Source: Leucoraja erinacea (lineage: Eukaryota). From it: a stretch of 64,000 nucleotides of DNA. This document shows, piece by piece, positions 261 through 59,478 of this stretch. Each line of letters starts with the position of its first letter. Positions within the stretch are counted from its first letter, which is position 1. Where the stretch lies: contig NC_073409.1 in NCBI RefSeq assembly GCF_028641065.1, positions 1,178,001 through 1,242,000 of the forward strand, given 5' to 3'. Made by a program: the position numbers and the translations under genes. Under the pieces are notes generated by a model, which ran no database searches, was not told the origin of the DNA, and saw only the letters and a program-made list of their open reading frames with translations.

Positions 261-383
261 CGTCTGAAGAAGGGTCTCGACCCAAAACGTCACCCATTCC
301 TTCTCTCCAGAGATGCTGCCTGTCCTGCTGGGTTACTTTATCTTTGGTGTAAACCAAGCATTTGATGTATTCCTTCCTACACA
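261..383 (+). mobile_element. Penelope-derived hammerhead-bearing short element (single arm, GAAA box mutated to AAAA)
   Basis: ctgaagaagggtctcgacccaaaacgtcacccattccttctctccagagatgctgcc... Confidence 0.7.
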
Positions 384-737
384 CCTACAGACTTATATTT
401 ATTATCTCTTAGTTTAGCTTGGGAACAGAGAATATAGAAGCAAAGAACTGCAGAACTGGTTTATATTAAAGATAGACTCAAGGTACTGGAGTAATTCAGT
501 AATTTAGGCTGCACCTTATAGACTGAAACAGTGTGGAAACAGGCCCAACTTGCCCACACCGGCCAACATGTCCCACCTACACTAGTCCCACCTGCCTGCG
601 TTTGGCCCGCATCTCTCTAAACCTGTCCTATCCATGTACCTGTCTAAATGTTTCTTAAATGTTGAATGGGCAACATTCCTTGTTCTTCAGAGATGTTCCC
701 TGACCCACTGAATTACTCCAGAACAGTGTCTATATTC

Positions 738-1017
738 AGCATGGAAACAGGCCCTTCAGCCCTTCTGTGTCCACACCGACCATCGATCATCCGTTCCCTA
801 ATTCCCCGTTATCTCAATGTTGCATCCACTCCCTGCACACTCAGGGGCAATTTTACATCTGCCAATTAATCCACAAACACGCACGCCTTTGGGATGCGAG
901 AGGAAACTGGAGCACCCGGAGGAAACCCACACGGTCACAGGGAAAACGTGCAAACTCCACAAAGAAGTCAGGATTGAACCTGGGCCTCCACACTGTGAGG
1001 CAGCGGCTCTGCCAGCT
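738..1017 (-). mobile_element. HE1-type V-SINE
   Basis: Reverse complement of the V-domain gggtttcctccgggtgctccagtttcc and the gaagggcctgtttcc tail. Confidence 0.75.
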
Positions 1018-2054
1018 ACTTGCAGTATTCTTGAATCTTTCAGTTATCAAGTTATGTGGGGAGAAAGCCGGAACGGGTTACTGATTTTGGATGATCAGCC
1101 ATGATCACAGTGAATGGCAGTGCTGGCTCGAGGGGCCGAATGGCCTACTCCTGCACCTATTTTCTGATTCCACATTTGTCTGATGTATGGCCTCTCAGTC
1201 TCTATTTGGACACCCCTTCTTTTGACACTTAACCTGACAAGCCAATTGGAGATTGATGTGTAGCCCTGGAAGGGACGGGCAGGGTTGATGTGATGGACTT
1301 CAGCCATAATGGAGAGAATAATCTCCCATATTAGGTGTAGTTAACATTTACTAAAGTGCCTACAGATGCAAAATGCATGAAATCTTTTTATAACATCATG
1401 CACAACCAAGATATGTACGATGGCCCTTGTATTCACCGAGCTGTAACTGTATCAACATGCAAAACTAGGTTGCCACATACTGATAGACCACCCAGCAACT
1501 ATCAAAGAATCATATTTGTAGAGGTTTTTCATGGAGATAGTGCAAGATTTAATAAGTATTCAATTTCCAATAAAGATAATTTCCCACTTGGAGCCATGGA
1601 GGCTGAAAACAAAACTCTTTTGTTCATTGATAGAGGCCAAATAGATATGAATGCGGTTAACAGGGAACTGCAGATGCTGGAGAATCGAAGGTTACACAAA
1701 AAAGCTGGAGAAACTCAGCGGGTGCAGCAGCATCTATGGAGCAAAGGAAATAGGCAACGTTTCGGGCCGGGAAAAAAAAAATCGTCTCCGCGCATTCAAT
1801 TCTCTAGGCCCTCACCCCCTCATCTTCAAAAATAAATAAATAAATAAATAAATAAATAACATAAAAAATTCTTAAACACAGATATGAATGTGGCTTAGGT
1901 TCACCAGCTGTAGGCAGGCAGGAAGTATGGACCCATGCATGATCTTTGGTTGAAGTACAACAATTAATAATAAATATCACATTCATCAACACACAGAATA
2001 ATACTTCAGATATGCTCATTAGAGAATTAAAGATACCCTAAAAAGCTAGGCTCA

Positions 2055-2860
2055 TGGGGTAGCACAGTGGTAGAGTTGCTGTCTCACAGCGCCAGAGACA
2101 CAGGTTTAATAGGTGCTGTCTGTACGGAGTTTGCACATTCTCCCCATGACCTGCGTGGGTTTTCTCTGGGTGACAATAGACAATAGGTGCAGGAGTAGGC
2201 CATTCGGCCCTTCGAGCCAGCACTGCCATTCAATGTGATCATGGCTGATCATCCCCAATCAGTACCCCATTCCTGCCTTATTCCCATATCCCCCGACTCC
2301 GGTATTTTTAAGAGCCCTATCTAGCTCTCTCTTGAAGTATCCAAAGAACCTGCCTCCACTGCCTTCTGAGGCAGAGAATTCCACAGACTCACAACTCCCT
2401 GTGAGAAAAAGTGTTTCCTCGTCTCTGTTCTAAATGGCTTGCCCCTTATTCTTAAACTGTGGCCCCTGGTTCTGGACTCCCCCAACATTGGAACACGTTT
2501 CCTGCTTCTAGTGTGTCCAAAACCTTAATAATCTTATACGTTTCAATAAGATCCCATCTCATCCTTCTAAACTCCAGAGTGTACAAGCCCAGCCGCTCCA
2601 TTCGCTCAGCATATGACAGTCCTGCCATCCCGGGAATTAACCTTGTAAACCTACGCTGCACTCTCTCAATAACAAGAATGTCCTTCCTCAAATTAGGGGA
2701 CCAAATTTGAGGTGCTCCGGTTTCCTCCGACACTCCAAGTTTGTAGGTTAATCGGCTTGGTATTAATGTAAATTGTCCCTCGTGGGTGTAAGATAGTGTG
2801 GCGGGATCGCTGGTCAGCATGGACTCGATGGGCCGAAGGGGCTGTTTCTGCGTTGTATAT
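2055..2860 (+). mobile_element. HE1-type V-SINE interrupted by a CR1 fragment
   Basis: SINE 5' part ends ...tttctctgggtg at ~2172 and resumes ggtgctccggtttc at ~2711. Confidence 0.8.
2173..2708 (-). mobile_element. CR1-clade LINE 3' fragment (RT C-terminus and tail)
   Basis: QIWSPNLRKDILVIERVQRRFTRLIPGMAGLSYAERMERLGLYTLEFRRMR; tail gggccgaatggcctactcctgcacctattgtctattgt. Confidence 0.9.
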
Positions 2861-3139
2861 TCTAGCTAGCATATTCTAATCTACAAAGGCCTGCCCCAAG
2901 CACCAATTAAATGCAGAGTAACCTAAACTTGTTCAGTTAACAATAATTACACCTGTATTATTAGAGGTGATTATTTCACCTTAATTATATTACGCAAGGT
3001 AAAATAAGTTTATAAATCAGCCATTGTGTTGTGGTCATAGCTATGCATGACCTGGTACAATTACAATAAACATTTGTGATCGAGAGGTTGTGCTTTGGTC
3101 AATTTGGTCAACAGTCAGATGACATTGTTTATTTTTATT

Positions 3140-3450
3140 CTAGAGAAACAGCGCTGCAAACAGGCCCTTCGGCCCACCGTGTCTGCACCGACCAGCGATC
3201 CCCGCACATCGACACTACCCTACACACTAGGGACAATGTACATTAGGGCCAATTAGCCCACAAGCCTGTACGTCTTTGGAGTGTTGGAGGTAACCGAAGA
3301 TCTCGGAGAAATCCCACGCAGGTCACGGGGAGAACGGGACAATGTACATTAGGGAGAACGTACAAACTCCATACATACAGCACCCGTAGTCGGGTTCGAA
3401 CCCGGGTCTCCGGCACTGCAAGCCAGCAACTCTACTGCTGCGCAAGTGTG
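3140..3450 (-). mobile_element. HE1-type V-SINE
   Basis: tRNA-like head with box B (ggttcgaacc), V-domain and CR1-like tail. Confidence 0.85.
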
Positions 3451-3817: not shown

Positions 3818-4066
3818 GGTGGCACGGTGGTACAACAGTAGAGACCCGGGTTTGATCCTGATCCTGTACTGAGTTTGTACGTTCTCCCCGTGACCTGCGT
3901 GGGTTTTCTCTGAGATCTTCGGTTTCCTCCCACACTCCAAAGATGTACAGGTTTGTAGGTTCATTGGCTTGGAATAATTGTAAATTGTCCCCAGTGTGTA
4001 CAGGATAGTGTTAATGACTCGGTGGGCCGAAGGGCCTGTTTCCGCGCTGTATCTCTAAACTAAACT
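3818..4066 (+). mobile_element. HE1-type V-SINE
   Basis: ggcacggtgg...gggcctgtttccgcgctgtatctctaaactaaac. Confidence 0.85.
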
Positions 4067-4477
4067 CGAAGGTAGACACAAAATGCTGGAGTAACTCAGC
4101 GGGACAGGCAGCATCTGTGGAGAGAAGGAATGGGTGCCGTTTCGGGTCGAGACCCTTCTTTAGACTTATCCCAGTGGTTCCCCACTAATCACAACTCCCT
4201 AACCCAACATTATTCCTTCTCGCTATTAATCAGTCCTTAATCCAGGGAAATACATCTGTCCCATGTTGAGCATGTTGCCTCACAGCGCCAGAGACCCAGG
4301 TTCGATCCTGACTGCGGGTGCTATATACATAGAATTTGTACATTCTCCCTGTAACCACGTGGGTTTTCTCCAGGTGCTCCGGTTTCCTCCCACACTCCAA
4401 AAACATGCAGGTTTGTAGGTTAATTGACGTCAGTAAAGATTGTAAAGTGTAATCTGTAGGATAGCACTAGTGTAGTG

Positions 4478-9030: not shown

Positions 9031-9428
9031 ACTAGAACTCTAAACTCTACAGATAATTAGCTAGGTACAGGGAAAAGCTTTTTTGTTGCTTGCCATCCAG
9101 TCAGTGAAATGACTATACATGATTACAATCTAACCGTCCACAGTTTACAGATACAGGACACAGGGAATAACGTTTAGTGCAAGGATAAAGTCCAGTAAAA
9201 TACAATTAAAGATATATTAAAGGTCTCCAATGAGATAGGTGGGAGGTCTGGACCGCTCTCTAGTTGGTGAGAGGACGGTTCAGTTACCCAACAAGTACAG
9301 GGAAGAAACTGACCCTGAATACAGCATTGTGTATATTTTCACACTTCTGTAAGGTTTATATTCTGCTCCATATATTTATATAACTGTCCAGACAGAGCAC
9401 GTATAATACAAAAGACAATGACCAATTT

Positions 9429-9622
9429 GAAGGTAGACAAAACGCTGGAGAAACTCAACAGGTGAGGCAGCATCTATGGAGCGAAGGAATAGGTAACGTT
9501 TCGGATCGAGACCCTTTTTCAGACTGATGATTTGAAGAAGTGTCTCGACCCGAAATGTCGCCCATTCCTTCTCTCCAGAGATGTTGCCTGACCGGCTGAG
9601 TTACTCCAGCAGTTTGAGTCTA
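9429..9622. mobile_element. Fold-back Penelope-derived element
   Basis: Minus arm ending ...gagaccctttttcagact, followed by plus arm tgaagaagtgtctcgacccgaaatgtcgccc...ttactccagc. Confidence 0.7.
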
Positions 9623-9724
9623 GCCTGAAGAACAACACAGAGATGGGTAGCAACATATCCAAAAGAGCTTCCCTTGTGTTGATTCCAGCAATGTGCTGCT
9701 GTTTTACAATGCCGAGTGGAATAG

Positions 9725-12786: not shown

Positions 12787-13327
12787 ACTGCCCAAGAGTA
12801 CTGGACATGACTAGAATACAACTCATCAACAGCTTCTGTTTGATGCAGTAGCTTGTGACACAGTCAGTACATCTGGTCCAAGACCAAACAAATAAATCTG
12901 TGTCTTTCCACAGAGAAAAGAATACTTCTGCCTTGTAATATTCTTCCAGTGAAATTGTCACGGTGCATTGATATTTAAATGTTCTATTTTATATACGAGG
13001 TCTATAGTTGCTTAAATTGAGACATAAAAACCTTGAATGATAAAAATGATAGATAAAAGTGATCAACGCAAAAGTGTCAAGTTGGTTTAGTTGTCGCATG
13101 TACTATCAACTTCATTGGTGACCCTCAGACTATCCTTGATCGGACTTTGCTGGCTTTACCTTGCACTAAACATTATTCCCTTATCATGTGTCTATACACT
13201 GCTAGCGGCTCGATTGTAATCATGTATTGTCTTTCTGCTGACTAGTTAGCACGCAACAAAACCTGTTCACTGTACTCCAGTACACATGACAATAAACCAA
13301 GTATGAAACAGAACAATGAATTTCTTA

Positions 13328-13537
13328 GTGTTCAAGAAGGAACTGCAGATGCTGGAAGATCGAAGGTACACAAAATTGCTGGAGAAACTCAGCGGGTGCA
13401 GCAGCATCTATGGAGCGAAGAAAATAGGCGACGTTTCGGGCCGAAACCAAGGGTTTCGGCCCGTAACGTTGCCTATTTTCTTCGCTCCATAGATGCTGCT
13501 GCACCCGCTGAGTTTCTCCAGCAATTTTGTGTACCTT
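13328..13537. mobile_element. Young fold-back (inverted dimer) copy of the Penelope-derived element with a 14-bp flanking direct repeat
   Basis: Arms of about 85 bp are near-perfect inverses meeting at ccgaaacc-aa-gggtttcgg; caatgaatttctta occurs at 13314-13327 and 13538-13551. Confidence 0.85.
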
Positions 13538-13954
13538 CAATGAATTTCTTACTTGCATCAGCATTACAGACAGGTCCGTAAACACACTCAGACATACATA
13601 AGAAGCAAAGAAAATGTCAATGGATTATAAATGCCTACAATAGTACAAAAGTGTTCTTCACGCAACCCGGACAGGTCATAGCTCCTAGCTTCATCTAATT
13701 TATTATCATGTTTACTGAAGTACAGCGAACAGCTTTATGTTGTGTGCTACCCAGTTAGTGAAAATACATCGTGCAAATACATATGTATGCCAAGATGTTT
13801 CAGAAATGGAGAATAAAAGACAATGATAATTCCTGGTAAATAGGCAGTCAAGTGGATGAATGGTCCCAAACATGGATTTTGAACAGAGTCCCATTAATTG
13901 TACACTATCAAAATAACATGTCAGACACATTTGATAAATAATTTTATGGAGCCG

Positions 13955-14535
13955 CAAGGAATTGCAACTGCTGGAATCTTGCGTAGAGTAGTAACTGTGC
14001 TGGGGATAACTCAGCGGGTCAGGCAGCATCTGTGGAGAACATGGATAGGTGACGTTTCACAGAGTGCTGGAGTAAGTCAGTGGGTCAGGCAGCATCTGTG
14101 GAGAACATGGATAGGTGACGTTTCACAGAGTGCTGGAGTAACTCAGCGGGTGCAGCAGCAGCTATGGAGCTAAGGAAATAGGCAACGTTTTGGGCCGAAA
14201 CCCTTCCGGGTTTCGGCCCGAAACGTTGCCTATTTCCTTCGCTCCATAGATGCTGCTGCACCATAACTCAGCGGGTCAGGCAGCATCTGTGGATAACAAG
14301 GATAGGTGACGTTGCACAGAGTGCTGGAGTAACTCAGTGGGTCAGGCAACATCTGTGGAGAACATGGATAGGTGACGTTTCACAGATTCCTGGAGTAACT
14401 CAGTGGGACAGGCAGCATCTATCGATAGAAGGAATGGGTGACGTTTCGGGTAGAGAGAAGGGTCTTGATCCGAAACGTCACCCATTCCTTCAATCCAGAG
14501 ATACTGTCTACTCCAGCATTTTTTTTTGTCTATCT
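13955..14535 (-). repeat. 66-bp tandem array derived from the Penelope short element, with an embedded fold-back unit
   Basis: Unit gagtgctggagtaactcagcgggtcaggcagcatctgtggagaacatggataggtgacgtttcaca; atggatagg recurs at 14041 and 14107. Confidence 0.85.
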
Positions 14536-16524
14536 TAGGATCGGATTAACTATTTGTTGAAAACATTGCAAAGCTCTCGCTTGAACTGAAACTTATTTTG
14601 TTACTTTTCCTCTGACAGACACTGAAGAAACAAACTTGACTTTAAAAACAAAACCGGCAAAGTGCAGAATATTAATCAACTTCAGCAAGGAGCACTCACT
14701 GTCAGCACAGAACTCAACGCTTCACTGCAACTTCACACCTGATGACTCTTGGCCCTGTACACGTGACAACTTGGGAACAATTGTTAGCCTCGTTGATAAG
14801 AGTGGGTTTGACATTTTGTACACAGTGATCCTAAACCCCAGGAAATGAGTCGGGTCAACAGGAAGTAATTTGATGTTATTAAGATGCATGGGCGAGCTGT
14901 ACAAGTCTTCAGAAAGATTTACTTCTGAAATAAATCAGATTTAAAAAAACAAATGGTGCAGTATACAAATACAACACATTCATTCAAACAATCGGATTAA
15001 TTCAGTTTGCTTTCTGGACTCATTTTCAGTTTGTTGTTAAAAACACAAAACTATTTTCAAATAAAAATCAGAACCGTATCAATATTATAAAGGAATATAA
15101 AGTACACACCACATGACTGGTCAATGATATCAGCACAGGTCTGAACACATTTGTGTTTGCCCTGTAGTTTGGTTTAGGTTATTGCAATTGAGCCACCCTA
15201 TCGTTCCAGATTCAAGCTCAGTCAATGCAGGGAATTACTTTGCAGATTTGTTTGGGTTTCGAATGCATTTCACTGGCATCTGGCTGGGCTGCTCAAACAC
15301 CATCCATTGTTCATTGGCTCAACTAAATCCACTGGGCGGAGCGTCACCTGTATTCATGCAACGCAAGATAGAAGCAGCAAGCTGCAGTAACTCAGCGGGA
15401 CAGGCAGCATCGCTGGAGAGAAGGAATGGGCGATGTTTCAGGTCGAGACCCTTCTACATGCGAGAGAGCGTGTGCGTGTGCGTGTGCGTGTGCGTGTGTG
15501 TGAGAGAGTGCAAGTGCCTGTGTGACCACCCTTGTAAAACAGCAGGTACACAAAAATGCTGGAGAAACTCAGCGAGTGCAGCAGCATCTGTGGAGCAAAG
15601 GAAATGGGCAACATTTCGGGCTGAAACCCATCTTCAGACTGTCCAATTCCAGCTGCAGACAACTCAAGTAGCTTATTTGAAGATATCTTTGACCAATTTT
15701 AGTGGGAGATACTTAGTCATCAGAACTGCATCTAAAGAACGTCTGAATTCAATTTCTGGCAACTGTGTCAATTCCATTTCCTGATTTATAAAGTGAGTTA
15801 GCGTTCCCTCACAGACCCACCTCGAAATTGGATCCATTCAACATGAGTTTTATCCACAAACCATTTTGTATCCATTTCCTATTGAAATCTTGCCCGTTAA
15901 TGAATTGGACCGGATAATGCCTGATGCAACTTAACTTTTCCACGTTTCCTTATTCCATCCCATATCATGTGCACAATGATATCAGCAAAGTGCACGTCAT
16001 TGACACAGTGCTAACATTCCATCCAAGCTTCTGCACTGCAGATTTCTGTGAAGGTCTTGGCCAAGCTGAGCCGATACCCAACCCATCCGACTATCTGTCT
16101 GCTAAGCCGACAAGTGGACCTGCAATCACCCATTACAATCGCCCCACTCTCTTATCCCTCGACTCCAACAGCAGCATTTCTTACTTGAACCAGCCCCCCC
16201 CCCAATGTATTACAGGTTGTCCATCAGCCACAGTGCACCAACCAGTGAGTCGGGGGTGGGGAAGGGACTGGGACTCTGAGTAACAGACTATCGTACAGCA
16301 TTAAAAATCTATTTGCTTCAAAAACAAAAGGATCGATTGAAGAAATTGTCTGAAGGGTCTCGACCCAAAATGTCACTTATTCCTTCTCTCCAGAGATGCT
16401 GCCTGTCCCGTTGAGTTATTCCAGCTTTGTGTCTAAACACGCATCTGCAGTTCCTTCCTACAAATTTTCCAAAGCATGGTTAATTCTCATATTATTTATT
16501 ATGTTCTAAATAGGTATTGGGTAA

Positions 16525-17015
16525 GTCTGTAGAAGGGTTCCAACCACCTATCCATGTGCTCCACAGATGCTGCCTGACCCGCTGACCAGCACTCTGTGAA
16601 ACGTCCATGTTCTCCACACAGATGCTGCCTGACCCACTCAGTTATGGTGCAGCAGCATCTATGGAGCTAAGGAAATAGGCAACGTTTCGGGCCGAAATCC
16701 TTCTGGAAATAGGCAACGTTTTGGGCCGAAACCCTTACGGGTTTCGGCCCGAAACGTTGCCTATTTCCTTAGCTCCACAGATGCTGCTGCACCCGCTGAG
16801 TTACTCCAGCACTCTGTGAAACGTCATCTATCCATGTTCTCCACAGATGCTGCTGCACCCGCTGAGTTACTCCAGCACTCTGTGAAACGTCACCTATCCA
16901 TGTTCTACAGAGATGCTGCCTGACCCGCTGAGTTACTCCAGCACTCTGTGAAACGTCACCTATTCATGTTCTCCACAGATGCTGCCTGACCAGCTGAGTT
17001 ACTCCAGCACTCTTG
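16525..17015 (+). repeat. 66-bp tandem array, reverse orientation to the 14-kb array
   Basis: ttactccagc at 16801, 16867, 16933 and 16999 (period 66). Confidence 0.85.
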
Positions 17016-17069
17016 TTTCTATGTTCTAATTGAAGAAATCAATATTGATTGGATGATACGTGAAGGTTT

Positions 17070-19850: not shown

Positions 19851-20286
19851 TAATATTATTGCTATTATCAGAGGAAATTAATACAAAAAACTGGAGGGTT
19901 TGCTTCCATGTTATAGAATCTTGGTGACACAACGTGTGGAATAACTTTATACACTATTGGTCTTATTTAAGGAAGGATGTTATTATATCGGAGAGAATCG
20001 GACGTGGTTTGCTAGACTCGTAAGTGGAATGGGCAGGTTGTCCGAGGATGAAAGGTTAGGCTGGATTGGCTTGGATCCCTTGGGGCAAGCGAGACCTTGA
20101 TTGAAACAGACCCAGAGTTATCCTGACAAGATGAATGTTGAGAACATGTTTTCTCTTGTGCAGGAAGGAACTGCAGATGGTGGTTTAAACCGAAGATAGA
20201 CAAAATCCTAGAATAACGCAGTGGGACAGGCAGTATCTCTGGAGAGAAGGAATAGGTGACGTTTCGGGTCGAGACATCGAAATATA

Positions 20287-20545: not shown

Positions 20546-21804
20546 CGTAAATTACCCATTTAAGGCCAGTTTTCTCTTGTGGCAGAATCTGGAACCAGGG
20601 ATTTTATTTTTTTAAACAGAGAAAGTAGGGTTGTTGAATATTCTTAAGTAGATGGATAATTGAAAAGTAAGGAGTTCAAAGGTCTCGGCACTTAAACAGA
20701 ATGCAGAGTTTATATTCAGATCAGTCATGAAGTTATTAAATGGCAGAGCAGTTTGATAGAGACCTGCCTCTGCTCCTAATTCTTATAACTGTTAGCAGAA
20801 TGGATAAGGTTGGTCATAAATGATGAATTAGGCCATTCGGCCCATCGTGTCTACTCTGCCATTCAATCATGGCTGAACTAGCTCTCCTAAAGGACAGGTT
20901 TGGAGGGATTTTAGCTTGCATGTGTTTGGTTCATTTGCCAGAAATATTCAATATAAAACGTTATCAAAGGTGCAAATAATAATTTTCAAACACCACTTTC
21001 CCTCCTCCAGCCAAGTAACAAACAATGCAAAGTATCCCAAGCATTTGTACGGATGAGATTTATGGGCGAGATTTAACATGCGCTCTGACAAGCCTGAAAG
21101 CTCCAGCAGGAAATGTGAAATCACCCATGGTCTTGGCATCATGTCCACAGGGCTGGACAGTAAATTCTCCAACTCTGTCAGCGGGTGGCAGGTTCCATTT
21201 CAAACAGAAACCTATCACTGTCACCACTCCAGCCCTTTAACAACAGTGTATTGTCTGGCTGACAATGGCAACAGAACACACACTGCAAGCAACATGCAAA
21301 CACTGCGTCTAAAGTAGAAGAGAGACACAAAATGCCGGAGTAACTCAGCGGACAGGCAGCATCTCTGGAGCATATGGATGGATGAAGTGTCAGGACATGA
21401 CCCTTCTTCAGACGTTTTTCTTCCAACTTCAAAGCTGGAGTTTAAAGATGTACATTTGGAAGTGAAGGGCAACATGGAAAAATAGAGACACGGGTAATAC
21501 TGCAAAAACATGATACAGGGTAGTGCATCCTTAGAAAGCAAGTATTGTGGAAAATAGCTTCACAAAAACAGGTAATTCCCCCCCCCCCTTCTCACCAGCC
21601 TGGGTATTGGTTTTGCAGGGCAGCATCAATTAACAATTGTAACGTTTAATAGTTTCTGATCAAAACCACCTTAAAACTATAGTTTGTTTGGTTGTTTGTT
21701 TGCTTGTCTTTTTGCCAAATGTCCGCGAGCATTGCCACTTTTCATTTCACTGCACATCTCGTATGTGTATGTGACGAATAAACTCGACTTGGTTTGGTAT
21801 AAGT

Positions 21805-22915: not shown

Positions 22916-23282
22916 TATTAGGCAATGAGAAAAAGGTTCAATGTTAATGTTGTGGTTCACAAACCTGGAGGAAAGAATAATCATTATACAATAGAATTGT
23001 ATATAAAGATTGCAAGCGAATTATCTCAAAATGTAGCCAGAGATTTAAACCAAAACAGAGGCATGAGTTGGCTGTGGTGGATTGGGAAAACTATAAAAGA
23101 TATTATAGTAAACAAGCAGTGGTTAATATTTCATTACATAATTCGTTTAAAAGCAACATGTACCTTGTTAAAGAAAGTAAACAATGAAAATTGCCCCGCC
23201 ATGACTAACATAAGTCAATGCAAGTTGACTAAAAATGTGCTATATAAATAAGATTATTATTATATATATTATTATTAAGTCA

Positions 23283-23797
23283 TGTTTAAGAAGGAACTGC
23301 AGATGCTGGAATATGAAAGATAGTCAAAAATGCTGGAGTAACTCAGCGGGTGCAGCAGCATCTATGGAGCGAAGGAAATAGGCAACGTTTCGGGCCGAAA
23401 CCCTTTCGGGTTTCGGCCCGAAACGTTACCTATTTCCTTCCGGGTTTCGGGCCGAAACGTTGCCTATTTCCTTCACTCCATAGATAGAAACATAGAAATT
23501 AGGTGCAGGAGTAGGCCATTCGGCCCTTCGAGCCTGCACCGCCATTCAATATGATCATGGCTGATCATCCAACTCAGTATCCCGTACCTGCCTTCTCTCC
23601 GTACCCTCTGATCCCCTTAGCCACAAGGGCCACATCTAACTCCCTCTTAAATATAGCCAATGAACTGGCCTCAACTACCCTCTGTGGCAGAGAGTTCCAG
23701 AGTTTCACCACTCTCTGTGTGAAAAATGTTCTTCTCATCTCGGTTTTACGGGATTTCCCCCTTATGCTGCTGCACCCGCTGAGATTCTCCAGCATTT
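23283..23797. mobile_element. Fold-back Penelope-derived element interrupted by a CR1 3' fragment (23485-23764, minus)
   Basis: The right arm ...ccatagat resumes at gctgctgcacccgctgagattctccagcatttt after the CR1 insert. Confidence 0.75.
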
Positions 23798-23989
23798 TAA
23801 TTATTATAAAACCAGTCTACAACATCACACAAAAAAAAAGCATGAGCATGGGAAAATTATTAGCATTCAACATCGAAAGGCCAGGGTAATGATTAGAATA
23901 CAAAACATAGAATATCACTCTAATCTATCAAAGTACCAAAACTACTGCAAAGATTTCCATGGGCACATAGAGGGGAAAAGATTAGCAAA

Positions 23990-32357: not shown

Positions 32358-32960
32358 AGTGAGACCAGATGCTAAGTGGATGAACAGCACCTCCATGTTC
32401 CACTTGGGTAGCTGCCGACCCAACAGTGCGAACATTGAACATCCCCCATTCCTGTAAGCTCACGTTCCTTCAACTACCTGTCCCCTATTTCTTCACCCCC
32501 TCCTTGCCCCTATCCCCCCCGACACTCCTTCCCCTGGCTTCACATCTCATTCCTCTTCTCTCCTTATCTATCTCCGGTTCAACTCTCGCTTTTGATCGGC
32601 AGATGATTGAAGCAAGGGGCAAAGTCCCCATCGCTTGTACTCACCTCATCTGAAGAAGGGTTCCGCCCTGAAACGTCAACCATCCCTTCTCTCCAGAGAC
32701 GCTGCCTGTCCCGCTGAGTTACTCCAGCATTTTTTCTATGTATGTTCCACTTGCTAAGATCTGCCATGCACCCTTCCCCCCCTCTCTTGTCTAGTTTCCC
32801 CCCCCCCCATCCCCCCCACTACAATCACTGAAGAAGGGTCCCGACACAAAACACCACCCATTCATTCATTCCCTCCCCGATTCTGCCCGACCCATCGAGT
32901 TACTCCAGCACCTAGTGTTGTGTTTGCGGTTCCAGCATCGCCATTCCTTGTATCTCTATT
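32358..32960 (+). mobile_element. Penelope-like retroelement 3' fragment: degenerate GIY-YIG endonuclease C-terminus, pyrimidine-rich 3' region and two tandem hammerhead-bearing repeats
   Basis: 32358-32457 translates (one stop, one frameshift) to SETRC*VDEQHL/MFHLGSCRPNSANIE, resembling the Penelope ORF end motif EEQHLIFRLGxLxPxGxNxxF. It is followed by CTGAAGAAGGG motifs at 32650 and 32829. Confidence 0.7.
32650..32677 (+). ncRNA. Minimal hammerhead ribozyme motif (Penelope type), best-preserved core in the window
   Basis: CUGAAGA-AGGG-UUCCG-CCCU-GAAA-CGUC has both core boxes, a 4-bp stem II, a palindromic ACGU for a dimeric stem III and a GUC cleavage triplet. Stem I pairing is weak. Confidence 0.6.
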
Positions 32961-39070: not shown

Positions 39071-41929
39071 TTTTGTTTTCTTGTCCTCCGAATGAAAACC
39101 TAGCGTACCAGCTCCGTTGACAAAGTCCAATGGTGAATTGGGCAGTACTCTAGCTGATGGAAGAACCATTCAGAAACATAACAGATCAGTACAGGTGATT
39201 AGTACAGGATGAGTTATAGGGAGAAGGCAGGACAATGGGTTTGGGAGGGAGAGATAGATCAGCCATGGTTGAATGGCGGAGTAAACTTAATGGACCAAAT
39301 GGCCTAATTCTTCTCCTATCACTGTTGACCTTATGAATAGACTTCCTATTTTCACACATGCAAATTAATTGCACTAAACGGGTCAGGTTGTGGCCTCTTC
39401 AGAAAACATAACATCTTTCTATACGAGTACATAACATTACACTTGTAAACGCTTTCCAATGCAACTTTAAGATGACTGGTTGGAATTCCACTGATGAAGA
39501 GTTTGAACCAGACTGGAGGATGATGAATAATTAAATACCCTCACAGAACAGATTCATTTTCCTGTTTGTAGATCCCCCTTACATATTTTGCTGCCTCCAC
39601 TGATTCTGCAAACATGCCCATCTCAGGAGTACAACGGGAATGTTTAACATTGCTTCCCTGATGTTAAAATCGTGCAACGTTTATGTTTTAACTGGGAGGA
39701 TTGGAAGGGAGAAAGAGAGTGAAACATGAACAGGTCCCCTGTTATACCCCATGAGGAAGTTATTTTTTAGTAACCACAAACGTAAAAAAATGACCCCTGA
39801 CTAAGTGATCAGTCAGGTTATCTGCACATTGCGATCCCTGGGAGGAAGCAAGAAGGAGCAAGGTGTAAGGGTAGGGAGAAATAATGAAAAGTAGAATGGA
39901 GCTAATGGGACTGTTCCTCTAGGGGCCAGCATGGACTTGATGGGCTGAATGGCCTTCCCCTGCGTCCATACCAGATGCCAGGTTTGCCAAAGAGATGACC
40001 AGCTCCCCAAAGATGTCAATCTAGTCATTTATAAATAACATATCTGCATTCAAGAAGAACTCTTGCTGTATTTATGTCACCTCCTGTTCCATGTGAAGTT
40101 TTTATTGATATGTCCAACTTGTTTTGCACCTATAAGCTTAAAATCTAAACGTGGCCTGTAGCTTTTGGCACTGTGCCAGATATTCCTATTAGGTTGAGGA
40201 AAGCATTCTGATACAGCACACTGTGTAACTTAAACAAGTCTTGACAATATTTCAGAATGTATTTTCTCATCCTGGACATGAATCATTAGACATTCAAGAC
40301 AAACTCTGTATCTAAACTGTCACCACTAATGTGTCCTTGCCACGACTCCCTTCAATATGAAAGTATCAAACTAATGCTGTGTGCCGGGATCAGAATTAGA
40401 TTTTATATCTAAACATTTTAAACGTTTTACAGTATTAGCCTGAAGCACACAGGCACTCCAAGTACTTGCTCTTCCAAAGAACAGCAGCTGTTAAAACATG
40501 TTAGCACACTTCTACCGATTCCAAATAGTAGTAGTGAGTGCAATTATACACGTGTTAAGTGCACGTCTAGTGGTTCCATACAGGACCTTCAAAACCAAAT
40601 TACATTCTGGCACAGTTCACAAATCATTTCTAATTTTACACATCTTAAAATACAATGCCACTTGCCATTTGTCAGCAATGGGAATGTTTGCCGGCACAAA
40701 TATGGAGATGGAACAAGAATCTAATAATCACCAATGAGATTCAGTTGATGGATTGAAAAACACAGCATGGGAACAGGCCCTTCAGCCCACTGAGTCTATG
40801 CTGACCATCGATCACCTGCACACTGGGGGAAAGTTATACAAGCCAATTAACCTACAAATCCACATGTCTTTGGGGTGTGAAGGAAGAAGGAAGCAAGATT
40901 GTAGAAACATTCTTTGGGTCCTGAAGAGCCTCGACCCAAAACGTCACCTATCCAGGTTGTCCAGAGACACAAAGTGTTGAAATAACTCAGCGGGTCAGGC
41001 AGCATCTCTGGAGAATGAGGATGGGTGATGCTTCAGGTCGGGATCCTTCCTGTCCGAGCAGCTGGGTTACTCTAGAACTTAGCGTCCGGACAGAGAAGGG
41101 AACTCACCTCCAGTTTCCTGTAGGCAACAAGGGTCGGGTAATACAAGGTGGAACCAACACCAATTCCCCGTCAAAGCCAAACGTCAAAGTCACATGTATT
41201 CGACTGTTCCCAGACACAGTCCTGAGAACACATCAATGATTTTAATCTGCTGGGCAGGGTCAGCCATGTCTACATGGAAGCTTATGTTCAGGAAACCCTT
41301 GTCTCAGAGACTGTAATTCATTAGGACCACAACACAGTGGAAAATTCAAAGCAGAAATGCAGAACAAGTTAACCATTCACACCTGCAGACTGACAACACA
41401 CACACACACACCTCCAGCAGCTTCACTTGGACCCACACACAAAGGTGTCAGAGATTCGCTGCTTTTGCCCAAAACATTCCAGATTTCATCATCTGCTCCA
41501 ACTATCCCCTCAGGCTACTGGGAAGCAAAGAACTTCCCACTACTTAGCACCACGCTCTCTGTGATCACAGCAGCACTTTATCCCTCTCATCACTATCAAA
41601 GCCAAGTATTCATCACCTTGAGGCACTGATGTAGCTAACCTCAACACACTAAAGTTAAAGCTTCGTAAACAATATAGCAAAATGCAATCAAAACATCTCA
41701 AATATTCTAAACTGCCCATGGAGTCCCCATATTCCATTTATAGTTGGAGATACAAGGAACTGCAGGTGCTGCAATCTACCTCAAACTCAAAGTGCTGGAG
41801 GAACTTAGCAAGTCAGGCAGCATCTGTGGAGGGAATGGACAGGCAACGTTTCAGGTTGGGTCAGGTGAAGTCGGGTTCCGATCCACAGATGCTGCCTGAT
41901 CCGCTGAGTTACTCCAGCACTTTGTGTTT

Positions 41930-42155
41930 CGGTGCAGCAGTAGAGTTGCTGCCTTACAGCACCAGAGACCCAGTCTGTATTGAGTTTGTACGTTCTCCCC
42001 GTGACCACGTGGGTTTTCTCCGGGTGCTCTGGCTTCCTCCCACATTCCAAAGACGTGCAGGTTTGTAGGTGAATTGTCCCTCGTGTGTAGGATAGTATAT
42101 CGGCATGGACTCTGGGGCCGAAGGACCTGTTTCCACACTGTATCTCTAAACTAAA
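41930..42155 (+). mobile_element. HE1-type V-SINE
   Basis: Consensus match. Confidence 0.8.
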
Positions 42156-50090: not shown

Positions 50091-50284
50091 TTTCATAGAG
50101 AACCACAGCAGGCGCTCACCATCACAAGTCCATGCATCCGACCTCTCGCTGCACCCCTGGATTGTCCACCCAGTCTTGGGGCACTCCATGGTGGACAGAG
50201 GTGACAGATGCAGTTCATATCTTCCCTCTCTGTGGTACCCCAGGCAAACCTAGCCCCTCCACAGAGCTACATTACATTCAGAAG

Positions 50285-50730
50285 GATAAACACAAAACAC
50301 TGGAGTAACTCGAAGATAGACACAAAAAAGCCAAGTAGCTCACAGTCAGGCAGCTCAGTGGGTCAGGTGACGTTTCTGCTGGAGTAACATGGTGGAGAAC
50401 AGGATGGTGACGTTTCACAGAGTGCTGGAGTAACTCAGCGGGTCAGGCAGCATCTGTGGAGAACATGGATAGGTGACGTTTGAGTGCGTCTCAGGGGTCA
50501 GGCAGCATCTTCAGACATGATAGACGTTTCAACCTGCAACGCCAGGCCTATCTGTGTCCTTTCCAGAGATGGTAACTCAGCCACCAGCAGAACATGGAAG
50601 GTGACTCTCGGCACTTCTTGATCCCAACCTGCAACGTTCCTATCTGTGTCTTCAAATTTAACCAGGGTCACTGACCTTCCAGCAGCTCTGCAGCTCCTGG
50701 TCTTCAAATTTAAAGGGGTCACTGACCTTC
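50285..50730 (-). repeat. Scrambled array of the same 66-bp unit
   Basis: One intact unit (~50410-50480) among shuffled fragments. Confidence 0.6.
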
Positions 50731-52260: not shown

Positions 52261-52302
52261 CAGATATTGAATCACAAAGAAACTATCCAAACCATGCTGG
52301 AG

Positions 52303-52445
52303 GAACTCAGTGAGTGAGGCAGCATCTATGGAGCGAAGGAATACACAACGTTTCAGGTCGAGACCCTTCTTCACCTCACCCGCTGAGTTCCTCCAGCATT
52401 TCTGTCTCCCTTCGATTTTTCCAGCATCTGCAGTTCTTTCTTAAA
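52303..52445. mobile_element. Fold-back Penelope-derived element with a 15-bp flanking direct repeat
   Basis: caaaccatgctggag at 52288-52302 and 52446-52460 flanks a minus arm followed by a plus arm. Confidence 0.75.
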
Positions 52446-52901
52446 CAAACCATGCTGGAGTCACTCAAATTCAAAAGGTGAAGAGAAGTCTTGAACAAGG
52501 GTTTTCATTACATGAAGGAAGTAGGTAGAACAGCTGGAGAGAAAACCTTTGTCGTTGGGTAGGAAAGGGTTAAAGACTAGCTCGACAGAAAGGAAAATGG
52601 GAAATATTTCTGCTGGTAAACTTTGAAACTCTATTCCACCAATGACAAATCGATGAAAGGTAAATTGTTTATTTAAACACTGAGATGGATTGGTCTTCCA
52701 GCAAATTCATGAAGGAAATGAAGGAGCAGCAGTTAATCAGAATTAGGTCAAAAGATTAGTCAGGAGCAGAGTGAATGGCAGGACAGACACAAGGGGCTAG
52801 GTCCTTCAAAGGCACCTGACTGACACCAGCGGTTGTGTATGGTAGAGTAAACCCTTCAACTCAACACCCTTCAGAAAAATAGACACACAGCACTGCAGCT
52901 G

Positions 52902-53143: not shown

Positions 53144-54008
53144 GAGCCCAATTAAAAAGATGCTGGCTTATACCAAATGATCGGCACAAAAGTGCTTCTT
53201 TGAAGAAGGGTCCCAACCCATCCTTTTCCTCCAGAGATGCTGCCTGACCCCTCGAGTGACTCCAGCACTTTGGGTCACTCTTCAGAAAATACCATTTATA
53301 TTGAGTATTCCCAAATCACAGAACAATACAGCACAGAAACAGGCCCTTCGGCCCACGTGCTGAACATGATGCCAAGATGAACTAATCTCCTCGACCTGCA
53401 GTGATCCAAATCCACAAGTGCCTGTCTAGTGCCCCCTCTGTATGTGTATCCACCACCACTCCTGGCAGCGAGTCCCAGGCATCCACCACCCTCTTTGTAA
53501 ATCCATCAAACAAGTCTTAATATATCCCAATCCTGGAAAAGATACAACACATTGAAAGATTATTCCAGTCCCAAGCTTTCCCTCAGACAACCCACACGCT
53601 TCGTTTGTTTCCTCAGATTTGCTTTAGATGATCGTGACTTTAGGACGGAGAGAAAGATCAGCCATGATTGAATGGCGGGGTAGACTCGATGGGCCGAATG
53701 GCCTAATTCTACTCCTATTCCGTAGGACCTTGTGACAACAACAGCTGGCCAGGGGGACATCTGCCTGGAACACTAGCACCCAATCTGGCATGTACATCAT
53801 TTGCAGCGTGCTGGTGTAATGAACAAGGGCAATGTAAATACACAGAGCAGTTACAATGCAACACGCTGAGACAGACCCAAAACGCTGGAGTAACTCAGCG
53901 GGACAGGCAGCATCTGCGGGGAGAAGGAATGGGCGAGGTATCGGATCGAGAGCCTTCAGTGACAGTGACATGCATCTTCTCACCAGAGCTTAAACTAACA
54001 TGTCTTAC

Positions 54009-54071: not shown

Positions 54072-54169
54072 GCTGAAAGCTCCACGCTCCAGGTAATCTA
54101 CAATTAAATATATTAAAAAAACATTTCAGCATTCACACGCCGACCAGTCCCCCTTCCCCGAATTGAGAA

Positions 54170-54452
54170 GGGTCTCGACCCGAAACGTCACCCATTCCTT
54201 CTCTCCACAGATGCTGCCTGTCCCGCTGAGTTACTCCAGCATTTTGTGTCTGTCTTCGGTTAAACCAGCATCTGCAGTTCCTTCCCACACTCCGGACAAG
54301 ATGGGACCTGCCAAACTTTGTATTTTGTGCTGGAACTAAGGAACTGCAGATGCCGGTTTAAATCGAAGATAGACACAAAATGCTGGAGTAACTCAGTGGG
54401 ACAGGCAGCATCTCTGGAGAGAAGGAATGGGTGACGTTTCGGGTCGAGACCC
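54170..54452. repeat. Inverted pair of Penelope-derived arms (54170-54283 and 54338-54452) in ADAMTSL3 intron 1
   Basis: Arms of about 115 bp, highly complementary, with a 54-bp spacer. Confidence 0.85.
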
Positions 54453-54539
54453 CTCGTTTGTATTTTACCGTGCCCGGATCACACAGATAATTAAGTTGGC
54501 GGAAAACAAAACACACATTTGTTGTCAAAAGCTGGTGGA

Positions 54540-55290: not shown

Positions 55291-55999
55291 AAGGCATGAA
55301 AACTATATTAATGTGTAGGAAGGAACTGCAGATACGGGTTTACACCGAAGATAGACAAAGTGCTGGAGTAAATCAGGCAGCATCTCTGGAGGGAACGAAT
55401 GGGTGATGTTTCGGGTCGAGACCCTTCTTCACCTAAAAAAAAGTATTCATGCTCGGTTGTAATCAAGGTTTCAAGGTGTCCTTATATCATGTATAGTCTT
55501 TCCGCTAGTAAGCAGGAAAAAAACTTGGCACTAAATGTGACGATGATCGCTCATCTAAACTCCAAAAATAACTTTAATAAAACTGTAGGAAGGAACTGCA
55601 GATGCGGGTTTATACCTAAGATAGACACAAAGTGCTGGAGTAACTCAGCGGGTCAGACAGTATCTCTGGAGAACATGGATAGGTGATGTTTCTGGTTGGA
55701 ACCAATTTTCAAACGGTAATAATCAATAACTGTTGTGCAACTTGTGTTGTCTCATCAACACTAGTCCCACCTGCTCGTGTATGGCCCATATCCCTCTCAA
55801 CTATGTACCTGCTCCAATAAAACATGGTGACCAGGGGGAAAGTAATTAGTCCTTACAACATCATAAATCAGTTACCGGTCTATGATTAGTGGGTTTTTTA
55901 TTCATGACTTAATTCTTTTTTTTTTTACTGTTTTAAGATCATTAATTTATTGTCCTACTGAAATAGTTTGGAATGAAGAGCAACTAGTTACCACATGTG

Positions 56000-57034: not shown

Positions 57035-57285
57035 CAGTAGACAATAGGTGCAGGAGTAGGTCATTCCGCCCTTCCAGCCAGTGCCACCATTCAATGTGAT
57101 CATGGCTGATCATCCCCAATCAGTACCCCGGTCCTGCCTTCTCCCCACATCCCCTGACTCTACTATTTGTAAGAGCCCTATCTAGCTCTCTCTTGAAAGT
57201 ATCCAGAGAACCAGCCTCCACCGCCCTCCGAGGCAGAGAATTCCACAGACTCACAACTCTCTCTGTGAAAAAGTGTTGCCTCACC
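57035..57285 (-). mobile_element. CR1-clade LINE 3' fragment
   Basis: Same subfamily as 2173-2708. Confidence 0.85.
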
Positions 57286-57520
57286 TGTCATGTTTAATAG
57301 ACACTTGGACAAGTACGTAAATAGGAAAAGTTAAGTGGAATATGGGCCAAATGGAACTGGCTCGTGGCAATGTGATTGGCATGATGGGCAAGTTGGGCCA
57401 AATGGTCTGTTCTCCTGCTGTTTAATTCCAAGAATGATAGAATCAGAAACCAGGAAACTTGTGCATGAAATTGGAGTGCAAACTTAAAATGTTATGGGAG
57501 AGAGGTGGGACTGAACTGTG

Positions 57521-57752
57521 NNNNNNNNNNNNNNNNNNNNNNNNNNNNNNNNNNNNNNNNNNNNNNNNNNNNNNNNNNNNNNNNNNNNNNNNNNNNNNNN
57601 NNNNNNNNNNNNNNNNNNNNNNNNNNNNNNNNNNNNNNNNNNNNNNNNNNNNNNNNNNNNNNNNNNNNNNNNNNNNNNNNNNNNNNNNNNNNNNNNNNNN
57701 NNNNNNNNNNNNNNNNNNNNNNNNNNNNNNNNNNNNNNNNNNNNNNNNNNNN
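57521..57752. other. Assembly gap
   Basis: 232 N. Confidence 1.
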
Positions 57753-58522
57753 CCATTATTAATTGGCTTTTCTCCAGGTGCTCCGGTTTCCTCCCACACT
57801 CCAAAGCCCTACAGGTTTGTAGGTCAATTGGCTTGGTATAATTGTAAATTGGCCCTGGTGTGTAGGATGGTGCTAGTGTATGGGATGAATGCTGGTCAGC
57901 ATAGACTCGGTGGGCTGAAGGACCCATTTCCACGCTGTATCTCTGAAGTGTAAATTGGACAGTTCTTCCGCCCCAGCGAGTTGGCATTAAATTTATCAAA
58001 AATCTGTTCAAATCCACTCAGGTCCATGCATTCACCAAATGCCACCAAAACAGATTTACTGGCTCCATCTGACTAACTATTTGTGAAGTTACAATGCAAA
58101 CATAACTCTTAAGTTGCATATTTACAGTCCTTTGCAAAGCTCCTGACATTTCTGTTGATAAACCTATTATGAATGCAAGATGCCACTTTCCAATCAAAAC
58201 CAGTACAGCCCTCCAGACTCAATTTTAGATAAAAATTAATTGCACCCTTCGTTTACCACCTTTCCAGCATTTACAATTTCCAATTATATCCGTATCTTGT
58301 TTACACTGCCTACAGACCACTTCACCATAATCCGTCACTAAGCTAACTCACGGTTGGCCTTCTCTCTGCTGTATTCCATCTTATCTCACACGCTTCTTCT
58401 GTTCTCTTCTCCCAGCTTAGTCTGCGCCCTGGAATTTAATTGACGTTTTCATAGCTATGAAAAAAGATCAACCCAAAACATTAATTGTCTTCATAAACGC
58501 CACTGAACTACATATTTTCCTT

Positions 58523-58868
58523 AGTAGTCACAAAATGCTGGAGTAACTCAGCGGGTGAGGCAGCATCTATGGAGAGAAGGAATGGGTGACGTTTTGGGTT
58601 GAGACCATTCTTCAGACAATTTCTTCAATCAATTATTTTGTTTTTGCTGCCGAGATCCTTCTTCAGACTGATGTCGGGTGGGATTGGAGACCCTTCTTCA
58701 GACTGATGGCGGGGGGATTGGAGACCCCCTCCTGACATCAGTCTGAAGAAGTCTCGACCCAAAACTTCACCCATTCCTTCTCCCCATAGTTGCTGCCTCT
58801 CCCGCTGAGTTACTCCAGCATTTTGTGTCTACCTTTGATTTTATCCAGCATCTGCAGTTCTTTCTTAG
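58523..58868. mobile_element. Fold-back Penelope-derived element with an internal ~31-bp duplication
   Basis: Minus arm 58527-58617 and plus arm 58741-58868, both with degenerate hammerhead cores; flanked by atattttcctt and atatttccctt. Confidence 0.7.
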
Positions 58869-59478
58869 ATATTTCCCTTTCCCTCTACCCCCTTCCATTA
58901 TCTCTCTCCCACCCCCCCACCATCTTGCTTGACATTTCCCTCTTATCTCCTCATCTGACACCCTTTTGTCTGGATTTCATATCAAGCTATTGTCCACCCT
59001 CTGTTTTATCAAACTCCCTCTCACTTGTATCCATGTCTTTTCCAGATCTCTATTCCCCACCCCCCCCCCCCCCCCCACCCCCTAACCCCCACTACAATCA
59101 GCCAGGAAATTGGTATCCACAGTTCTTTGTGACAGCCCTTTAATAAACCAACACACAAGGAACTGCAGATGTAAGAATCTTAAACACTTCAGTCTGAAGA
59201 AGGGTCCCAACCCAAATCAGCACCTATCCATGTCCTCCAGAGATATTGCCTGACCCACGGAGTTACCCCAGCACTAGATGTCATTAAATATTTCCAGCAA
59301 TGCTTTAATTAATCTATACATTCTGGACAGCTCATTTGTAATCATGTATTGTTGTTACACTGACTGGTTAGCATACACAGGTTTTTCACTGTACCTCGGT
59401 ACACATGACAAAAAACTAAACTAAACTACTCATGTCCGAGGTCTCAAAGTCTGTGTGGATGCAGACAATACCAAGGAC

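What the first reader, a model, noticed from the sequence alone, without database searches (positions are those of the whole stretch)
261..59290. Abundant short mobile element built around a minimal hammerhead ribozyme (Penelope-derived, retrozyme-like)
Seen: more than 20 copies of a ~130-bp element whose 5' end reads CTGAAGA-A-GGGTC-TC-GACCC-GAAAC-GTC (plus strand at 264, 9532, 16350, 32650, 32829, 40921, 53201, 58743, 59194; minus strand near 4165, 9524, 15640, 21412, 52373, 55432, 58617). Stem II varies while staying paired: GGGTC/GACCC, GGGTT/GGCCC with G-U pairs, and AGGG/CCCT. Known: CUGANGA, stem II, GAAA, NUH is the hammerhead core, and Penelope-like elements carry minimal hammerheads with a palindromic stem III that work as dimers. 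Inference: this is a non-autonomous, ribozyme-processed family mobilised by a Penelope RT/GIY-YIG protein. It is about as abundant here as the HE1 SINE, and I do not know whether it has been characterised in elasmobranchs.
Basis: partly seen in the sequence, partly recalled or inferred. Interest (0 to 1): 0.8.

Follow-up and report, generated by a model that had tools for sequence, protein, structure and literature searches.

The report
Truncated ends of Penelope retrotransposons
The short repeat is the leftover end of a known kind of jumping gene (a Penelope-like retrotransposon) in a cartilaginous fish, and its built-in ribozyme motif is real but does not appear to be what cuts the copies out.

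Summary
The repeat is real: 54-57 hits in the window, roughly 0.4-1.3 million fragments genome-wide. It carries a minimal hammerhead motif. It is not a separate ribozyme-processed or retrozyme family. It is the pseudo-LTR (5' UTR plus optional 35-nt 'tail') of an autonomous Penelope-like element with RT and GIY-YIG, Neptune-type by motif. It follows the endonuclease stop in 19 of 20 loci and flanks young 3.9-kb elements. Copies keep the core instead of starting at the cut site: 106 of 127 begin at -19..+22, and 3 near the cut at +28. None of 15 anchored window copies has an intact hammerhead. Stem II variation is subfamily difference plus CpG decay, and helix I is only 2 bp. Copies sit singly or head-to-head inside 11-18-bp target duplications; 16 of 18 short pairs and 8 of 8 long ones carry exactly one tail, fitting priming from both nicks. 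A young 66-bp minisatellite without the ribozyme core has spread inside older subtelomeric copies. Hammerheads in Penelope ends, inverted ends, tails and TE-derived subtelomeric minisatellites are all published. New details are the sharp 5' stop at the hammerhead edge and the one-tail count. Cleavage is untested.

The parts
259..364 (+). family A end copy (C3 of CUGA at 264; GAAA decayed)
441..517 (-). old 3' part with tail
671..763 (+). old 3' part, weak hit
1653..1771 (-). young family B arm with tail, 5' end inside stem II; one insertion with the next part, inside an 11-bp duplication (1643 and 1880)
1782..1828 (+). 47-bp piece of the RT ORF, 100% identical to the young full-length element, inverted against the arm above
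4061..4177 (-). family A end copy without tail (GGC in place of GUC)
9419..9629 (.). head-to-head pair, family A, neither arm with tail
13322..13545 (.). young head-to-head pair, family B, joined in stem II, one tail, 14-bp duplication (13314 and 13538)
13940..14540 (-). old family A head-to-head pair whose one arm holds 66-bp units and the recurrent inverted family B insert, ending in an old tail
15361..15459 (-). family A end copy
15532..15642 (-). family B end copy
16347..16462 (+). family A end copy with tail
16522..17027 (+). old end copy (10-bp flanking match) holding 66-bp units, a 34-bp duplication and the recurrent inverted family B insert
20159..20275 (-). family A copy with tail, starts in stem II
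21306..21414 (-). old end copy
23282..23485 (.). young family B head-to-head pair with a 34-bp duplication at the junction
23764..23799 (+). family B fragment
24888..25010 (-). family A copy with tail
27052..27139 (-). 3' half with tail
32357..32460 (+). decayed, frameshifted C-terminal end of the endonuclease ORF (74% to L007 over 82 bp)
32648..32746 (+). family A end copy, probably nested in the 3' UTR of the older element (inferred)
32823..32942 (+). old end copy after a pyrimidine-rich UTR, probably the end of the 32357 remnant (inferred)
40923..41051 (.). two fragments, tail-to-tail
41753..41930 (.). old head-to-head pair, one tail
50259..50516 (-). degenerate copy with a 66-bp-unit junction
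52288..52460 (.). head-to-head pair inside a 15-bp duplication (52288 and 52446)
53200..53290 (+). old end copy, GAAAC-GUC deleted
53866..53957 (-). family A end copy
54160..54288 (+). family A copy with tail
54338..54455 (-). family A copy with tail
55313..55431 (-). family A copy with tail
55584..55714 (-). old end copy with tail
58497..58619 (-). family A end copy
58727..58869 (+). family A copy with tail and about 15 nt of upstream UTR; next to a 35-bp tandem of inverted heads (58652-58727)
59186..59286 (+). old end copy
63567..63689 (+).

Best explanation
The repeat is the pseudo-LTR end of an autonomous, endonuclease-bearing Penelope-like retrotransposon (PLE; Neptune-type by motif). SHOWN: the unit is about 3.9 kb. 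Numbering from C3 of CUGA, it runs hammerhead motif (+1..+28), 5' UTR, ATG near +165, RT, zinc linker, GIY-YIG, then an 80-120-nt pyrimidine-rich 3' UTR back to the motif. Insertions end at about +95 or about +130 (the tail) and are bounded by 11-18-bp target duplications. INFERRED: the element's own protein nicks both target strands about 13-16 bp apart and starts reverse transcription inside its RNA at these two sites. When both nicks prime, one uses each site, giving head-to-head insertions with exactly one tail; the palindromic stem II often forms the joint. About nine in ten arms stop at the hammerhead, most near its 5' edge (-5..+10). The likeliest reason is that the template RNA begins there, at an initiator-like YYAGT, so RT runs off as a 'strong-stop' product (about 50%). 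The alternative is stalling at the folded or protein-bound hammerhead (about 40%). The RNAs that were copied were not cut at GUC/GUU. The motif is under selection in the active lineage and may cut weakly, as a protein-assisted dimer, at another step (about 50%). Inserted copies decay neutrally. A 66-bp piece later became a subtelomeric minisatellite that spreads among old copies, most likely by recombination or gene conversion.
For: The element starts about 80-120 bp after the endonuclease stop in 19 of the top 20 endonuclease loci (the 20th is interrupted by an insertion). Young full-length and tandem elements have it at both ends, 99.6% identical in L101. The ORF has RVT_1 (E 1e-6) and GIY-YIG (E 0.006) matches, both under Pfam's cut-offs, plus YIDD, a C-x4-C-x2-C linker and CCHH. 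5' ends: 106 of 127 lie at -19..+22 and 3 at 23..32; only 8-10 of 127 run on into UTR or ORF. DNA contigs of a relative show loose ends at -2 and -1. Tail: 61 of 148 copies. Exactly one tail in 16 of 18 scorable short pairs (24 found; 2 have none, 0 have both; p=5.5e-4) and in 8 of 8 long inverted insertions, with 13-18-bp duplications. Short arms share a duplication with ORF pieces (window 1653-1828, L084, L111, L074, L115). The motif region is 32/36 identical between subfamilies A and B, against 62% in the 3' UTR and 24/37 at fourfold sites. 21 of 80 distant relatives give 23 sense-strand minimal hammerheads, 2 antisense, and 0-1 in each of 10 shuffles. Published basis: PMC11167929 (two internal RT starts define the tail; uncut RNA is the substrate), PMC4209133, PMC3846280.
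Against: No tree against named Neptune/Nematis/Poseidon references was built; the clade call rests on motifs. None of the 20 long loci fetched has one frame from ATG to stop. The 5' ends are ragged over about 15-25 nt rather than one base, and profile ends are imprecise. RNA reads showed no pile-up of starts at the proposed start site, nor at the cut site; they are swamped by passive copies and come from a related, coded organism. 46 of 71 rows for long arms had no inverted partner, so double priming is not universal. The evidence that long arms pair with long arms is small: 6 events against 6 long-short, two of the six chosen for that look. All four A/B differences in the motif are one-sided or unpaired; no two-sided compensation is seen within this genome.
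Confidence: 0.9

Rival explanations
1. An independent non-autonomous family: short copies are transcribed on their own and re-copied in trans by the PLE protein, without ribozyme processing.
For: Short copies outnumber long ones more than ten to one. pLTR sequence alone sufficed for trans mobilisation in a rotifer (PMC3846280, passages). One cluster of 15 copies had no member with a pyrimidine-rich upstream UTR.
Against: The other 6 of 7 clusters contain UTR-linked copies, and 0 of 15 is expected at an 8% rate. Short arms share target duplications with ORF pieces. 5' ends vary. No shared-flank subfamilies were noticed, but they were not searched for genome-wide.
Confidence: 0.07
2. A retrozyme: hammerhead-cut monomers or circles are reverse-transcribed and inserted.
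For: A PLE-type minimal hammerhead is present and conserved. Tandem arrays made from the same end exist and are subtelomeric, as reported for retrozyme multimers in Xenopus (bioRxiv 10.64898/2026.07.22.740005).
Against: Copies begin upstream of the cut site and end 70-100 nt downstream of it, not cut-to-cut. The 66-bp and 34-bp tandem units lack CUGANGA. Helix I is 2 bp (+0.9 to +1.2 kcal/mol as modelled) against -0.2 to -8.1 in 14 relatives. 0 of 15 window copies are intact.
Confidence: 0.02
3. Same element, but head-to-head insertions arise by fold-back self-priming (at stem II, or on an antisense template as proposed in PMC3846280), not by priming from both nicks.
For: 19 of 40 adjacent hit pairs are head-to-head, and many joints fall in the palindromic stem II.
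Against: The two arms end at different RT start sites, each abutting one copy of the target duplication with 2-3 nt of overlap. Arms differ in length and can be joined far from any palindrome in long insertions. A simple fold-back would give a mirror copy without the extra tail.
Confidence: 0.2

Closest known systems
Minimal hammerheads in PLE pseudo-LTRs (Cervera and de la Pena 2014, PMC4209133; parts 1-2 of 4 read, 2 of 3 supplements searched)
   Same: CUGANGA, extra base between positions 9 and 10.1, G10.1-C11.1, palindromic 15.2-16.2; thousands of solo motifs from truncated PLEs; nearby pairs on opposite strands.
   Different: Helix II is 4 bp rather than the 7-8 bp described for Schistosoma. 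Helix I is 2 bp (as in D. virilis) rather than 4-5. Cartilaginous fishes are not named in the text read or the supplements searched.
Anole Poseidon PAc (Frangieh et al. 2024, PMC11167929; parts 1-2 of 4 read)
   Same: Two internal RT start sites about a tail apart, both in AC-rich sequence; both strands cut and extended; cleavage not needed for insertion; no RNA ends at the cut site.
   Different: Here the ORF starts about 165 nt after the core, not at stem II. There is a zinc linker (Neptune-type). The two sites are used once each per inverted insertion.
Neptune-clade PLEs (Craig et al. 2021, PMC8557442, passages; Arkhipova et al. 2013, PMC3846280, passages)
   Same: C-terminal GIY-YIG with CCHH, CX2-5CxxC linker, partial tandems, inverted 5' copy, 30-40-bp tail at one end, target duplications.
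   Different: Very high number of ultra-short copies with a preferred 5' stop; duplications of 11-18 bp against 8-10 bp in the rotifer. Clade not tested by tree.
Non-LTR retrozymes (PMC7229834, passages; bioRxiv 10.64898/2026.07.22.740005, parts 1-3 of 5 read)
   Same: Derived from PLE ends; multimers near chromosome ends; reported in one chondrichthyan.
   Different: Retrozymes have a whole hammerhead in each tandem unit. Here tandem units have none and the main copies are not tandem.
Subtelomeric 52-bp minisatellite inside frog SINE/tRNA-V (PMC10794172, passages)
   Same: A short internal piece of a dispersed retroelement expanded in subtelomeric copies.
   Different: Here the source is a PLE end, units are near-identical between chromosomes, and a composite insert recurs at many loci.

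Membership tests
EN+ Penelope-like element | RT plus C-terminal GIY-YIG in one ORF | tested here: met
   755-aa frame with RVT_1 and GIY-YIG matches just under curated cut-offs and YIDD; 1,193-aa frame in L102
EN+ Penelope-like element | CCHH motif in the endonuclease | tested here: met
   CxxC between LIY and YIG, then EH...HF
EN+ Penelope-like element | Pseudo-LTRs, partial tandems, inverted 5' copy, optional tail, target duplication | tested here: met
EN+ Penelope-like element | RT groups with PLE/telomerase RTs in a tree | not tested
   no named reference sequences were available from the tools
Neptune clade | CX2-5CxxC linker between RT and endonuclease | tested here: met
   C-x4-C-x2-C; also in 97 of 105 homologues with a GIY-YIG. 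Nematis has a reduced linker, Poseidon none (PMC8557442)
Neptune clade | Phylogenetic placement | not tested
   no tree built
Minimal type-I hammerhead of PLEs | Core CUGANGA/GAAA/UH, extra base, helix II, palindromic helix III | tested here: met
   met in subfamily consensuses and 25 of 46 family B copies; 0 of 15 window copies
Minimal type-I hammerhead of PLEs | Helix I of 4-5 bp (2 bp in the D. virilis variant) | tested here: inconclusive
   2 bp, possibly plus 2 bp beyond a 2x2 loop
Minimal type-I hammerhead of PLEs | Self-cleavage | not testable with these tools
   no RNA end pile-up, which could not have shown a rare cut
Non-LTR retrozyme | Tandem units each with a complete hammerhead | tested here: not met
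   66-bp and 34-bp units lack CUGANGA; main copies are solo or inverted
Non-LTR retrozyme | Cut-to-cut monomers or circular RNA | tested here: not met
   DNA copies do not start at the cut site; circles not testable
Non-LTR retrozyme | Independent of a coding element in cis | tested here: not met
   continuous with the ORF; short arms co-inserted with ORF pieces

The most novel reading that the evidence does not exclude
The several hundred thousand short copies are 'strong-stop' products. The element's RNA starts at an initiator a few bases before the hammerhead core, so RT primed at the tail sites of the 5' repeat runs off after 95-130 nt. A protein dimer assigns one start site to each target nick. 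The ribozyme, with a 2-bp helix I, would then be a cap-proximal switch rather than a processing step. This would explain tail, inverted ends and solo pLTRs of PLEs with one mechanism.
Probability: 0.4. Interest if true: 0.6.

Novelty: new member of a known kind. Interest (0 to 1): 0.33.

Why it matters
It corrects the annotation of a very large repeat load (about 4% of sampled DNA) as PLE ends rather than a SINE-like or retrozyme family. It shows a recently active PLE lineage in a cartilaginous fish. The many young insertions give counts that bear on an open question, how PLEs make tails and inverted ends: the one-tail rule and the 5' stop are predictions that the published in vitro system could test. 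As a ribozyme finding it is ordinary, because minimal hammerheads in PLE ends of fishes are described.

Tried and rejected
Rfam: no hammerhead model hit; the miRNA hits are inverted pairs. Splice acceptor: all upstream UTR types end in a pyrimidine tract and YAG just before the core, like the D. virilis intron end. No RNA joint to that site was among the 15 joints shown (189 not shown), a branch-like motif is too close, and splicing would not explain a stop; left open. A GGC (non-cleaving) subfamily: 16 such copies are an artefact of my query. MFE folding of the end gave no significant z-score (-1.8 to +0.2); it puts the core in an alternative helix, not pursued. PDB sequence search: no hits. 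Host gene: 150 of 279 non-repeat frames scanned against Pfam gave nothing credible. Run search: no RNA holder listed on record. A simple flank test found a match of 7 bp or more in 10 of 51 solo copies (control 5%); most old copies have none left. One search gave 54 rows, at least 6 of them tandem or chance; no denominator was kept. Segmental duplication as the source of the 66-bp arrays: only 2 flank pairs matched among the array loci tested, not examined further. Literature searches found no description of this family or its hammerhead in cartilaginous fishes. PLE expansion in whale shark introns is reported (10.1101/443036, passages). Repbase and Dfam could not be searched, and the supplements of the 2026 retrozyme preprint, which lists one chondrichthyan, could not be seen; either may already hold it. 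The spiny dogfish and little skate genome papers do not contain 'Penelope' in the main text (passages).
Full report
Observation. The window is G000:C33:1178001-1242000 in a 2.19-Gb genome. The nearest named protein relatives are from sharks and rays at 65-73% identity, so the host is a cartilaginous fish by inference. All 16 quoted sites are copies of one repeat. Profiles find 57 hits, or 54 hits covering 5,374 bp. The 28-nt core occurs 14 times at up to 4 mismatches and never in 20 shuffles. Twenty 10-kb stretches at round-number positions on 19 large contigs gave 3.65 hits per 10 kb, or 0.42-1.33 million fragments by bootstrap, covering 4.3% of the bases. These are fragments, not insertions. 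A tRNA-type SINE is about as frequent. No quoted site has the quoted string exactly, and 0 of 15 anchored window copies keep all hammerhead features. Losses concentrate at CpG sites. Stem II is 4 bp plus a tetraloop.

What it is. Several genomic copies continue upstream into a pyrimidine-rich UTR and a GIY-YIG reading frame. A search with that domain gave 107,669 first-look candidates, 150 scored. In 19 of the top 20 loci the repeat begins about 80-120 bp after the stop codon. An RT search gave many near-identical hits with long open frames. Twenty such loci show a young 3.9-kb unit with the repeat at both ends, tandems 99.6% identical, and an ATG about 165 nt after C3. None has a single frame from ATG to stop; breaks fall in low-complexity sequence. 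The RT-EN frame matches RVT_1 and GIY-YIG just under the Pfam cut-offs. It has YIDD, a C-x4-C-x2-C linker and CCHH, the features given for Neptune in PMC8557442 (passages). I built no tree. Inside the window, 1782-1828 is a 47-bp piece of the RT, identical to the young element, co-inserted with a short arm in one target duplication. At 32357-32460 lies a decayed endonuclease end. The repeat is therefore the pLTR of the autonomous element.

The hammerhead motif. Two main subfamilies, A (older, GUC) and B (young, GUU), are 32/36 identical over -5..+30, against 62% in the 3' UTR and 24/37 at fourfold sites. All four differences are compatible with the fold, but none is two-sided. In 80 metagenome loci with related proteins, a minimal descriptor found 23 sense hits in 21 loci, 2 antisense, and 0-1 in each of 10 shuffles. 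The closest relatives share CUGANGA-A-stem II-GAAA-CG-UC. So the motif is real and selected. Helix I, however, is 2 bp here, the weakest of 17 modelled (three from this genome, 14 relatives). Published minimal PLE hammerheads cut weakly as dimers (PMC4209133) or only with protein (PMC11167929).

Boundaries. If cut RNA were the template, copies would start at +29. Of 127 hits in 264 kb, 106 start at -19..+22, 3 at 23..32, 11 later and 7 further upstream. Sorted by context: 51 solo at -19..+22, 38 in head-to-head pairs, 19 with a tandem neighbour, 8 long, 2 with another UTR type, 9 solo later. Among 64 solo copies the boundary is spread from -5 to +8 with a peak at -2/-1. DNA contigs of a relative show loose ends at the same two positions. 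The 3' end is at about +95 or about +130; 61 of 148 copies have the tail. Of 24 short head-to-head pairs, 18 could be scored: 16 have one tail, 2 none, 0 both (p=5.5e-4). All 8 long inverted insertions among the 20 fetched have one tail and 13-18-bp duplications overlapping the element ends by 2-3 nt. Long arms had a long inverted partner in 6 events and a short one in 6; 9 rows had an internal or cut partner and 46 none. Two of the six long-long loci were chosen for that look. Against a base rate of 8 in 127, this suggests that the stop is a property of the template rather than an independent stall, but the sample is small and biased.

Mechanism. From PMC11167929 (established for the anole element): the protein cuts and extends both strands, starts inside the RNA at two sites that define the tail, and uses uncut RNA. 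Inferred here: each nick primes at a different site. Most templates end, or block RT, at the 5' edge of the hammerhead. The two cDNAs are joined head-to-head, often through the palindromic stem II, or one is lost. An RNA start at the initiator-like YYAGT (motif recalled; PLE internal promoters are shown for D. virilis in PMC2377424, passages) is my first choice (about 50%), and stalling is second (about 40%). RNA reads did not decide it: depth was about 3,300 per direction over the motif and 1-10 over the ORF start, with no end pile-up at the start or cut site and no splice joint among those shown.

A derived minisatellite. The 66-bp tandem in the window is positions about +21..+87 of the end. 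It has about 40 scored look-alikes at 90-97% among 909 candidates, with one shared junction. 26 of 31 loci on large contigs lie within 3 Mb of a contig end, against 6 of 38 for plain copies (Fisher p=1e-8; 12% expected by length; self, duplicate and unplaced-scaffold rows dropped). Inner units differ by 2.2% (76 units; biased low by the search). 13 of 26 arrays start with an old degenerate head (chance 0.3%) and 8 of 26 end in a tail. An inverted family B insert recurs in 7 of 26 other loci and twice in the window, and in none of 729 kb of other loci. So young array interiors sit in older, unrelated host copies. This fits conversion among subtelomeric copies, as reported for a SINE-derived minisatellite in frogs (PMC10794172, passages). 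RT-driven homing is not excluded. The units lack CUGANGA, so this is not a retrozyme.

Verdict. The architecture is published (PMC4209133, PMC3846280, PMC8557442). Two unchecked notes of this scan describe the same pattern in other shark genomes. My searches found no description of this family in cartilaginous fishes, but repeat databases and one preprint's supplements were out of reach. It is a new member of a known kind, with two testable details: the 5' stop and the one-tail rule.

Noticed in passing
window 13940-14540, 16522-17027, 50259-50516; L220-L255: Young 66-bp minisatellite made from the PLE end, sitting inside older copies, strongly subtelomeric (26 of 31 vs 6 of 38), with a recurrent inverted family B insert.
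   Followed up: yes
window 16671-16736, 23402-23474, 58652-58727; L139: 34-35-bp tandem duplications of the stem II-GAAA-cut-site segment at head-to-head joints; similar go-back joints appear in a relative's DNA contigs.
   Followed up: partly
just upstream of the core in UTR-linked copies, e.g. window 58727-58742, L101:5300-5315: At least six different pyrimidine-rich UTRs all end in YAG before TCTGAAGA, readable as a splice acceptor or as an initiator; no splice joint was seen in RNA.
   Followed up: partly
L101:5480-6883: The young ORF has a roughly 470-aa N-terminal region, proline-rich in its later part, with no Pfam match.
   Followed up: no
L101:5316-5450: The purine run of the core can pair with the conserved UUCCUUC after the cut site, and the tail can pair with AGAUGCUG, so alternative folds may switch the motif off (not significant against shuffles).
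   Followed up: partly
L111 (G000:C438:31000-39543): Contig end made of many rearranged tandem pieces of the RT N-terminus; possible assembly artefact or satellite.
   Followed up: no
   Followed up: partly
L140-L219: Related elements in marine metagenome contigs carry varied minimal hammerheads (helix III CG, TA, GC, CCGG) with 3-5-bp helix I in most.
   Followed up: partly
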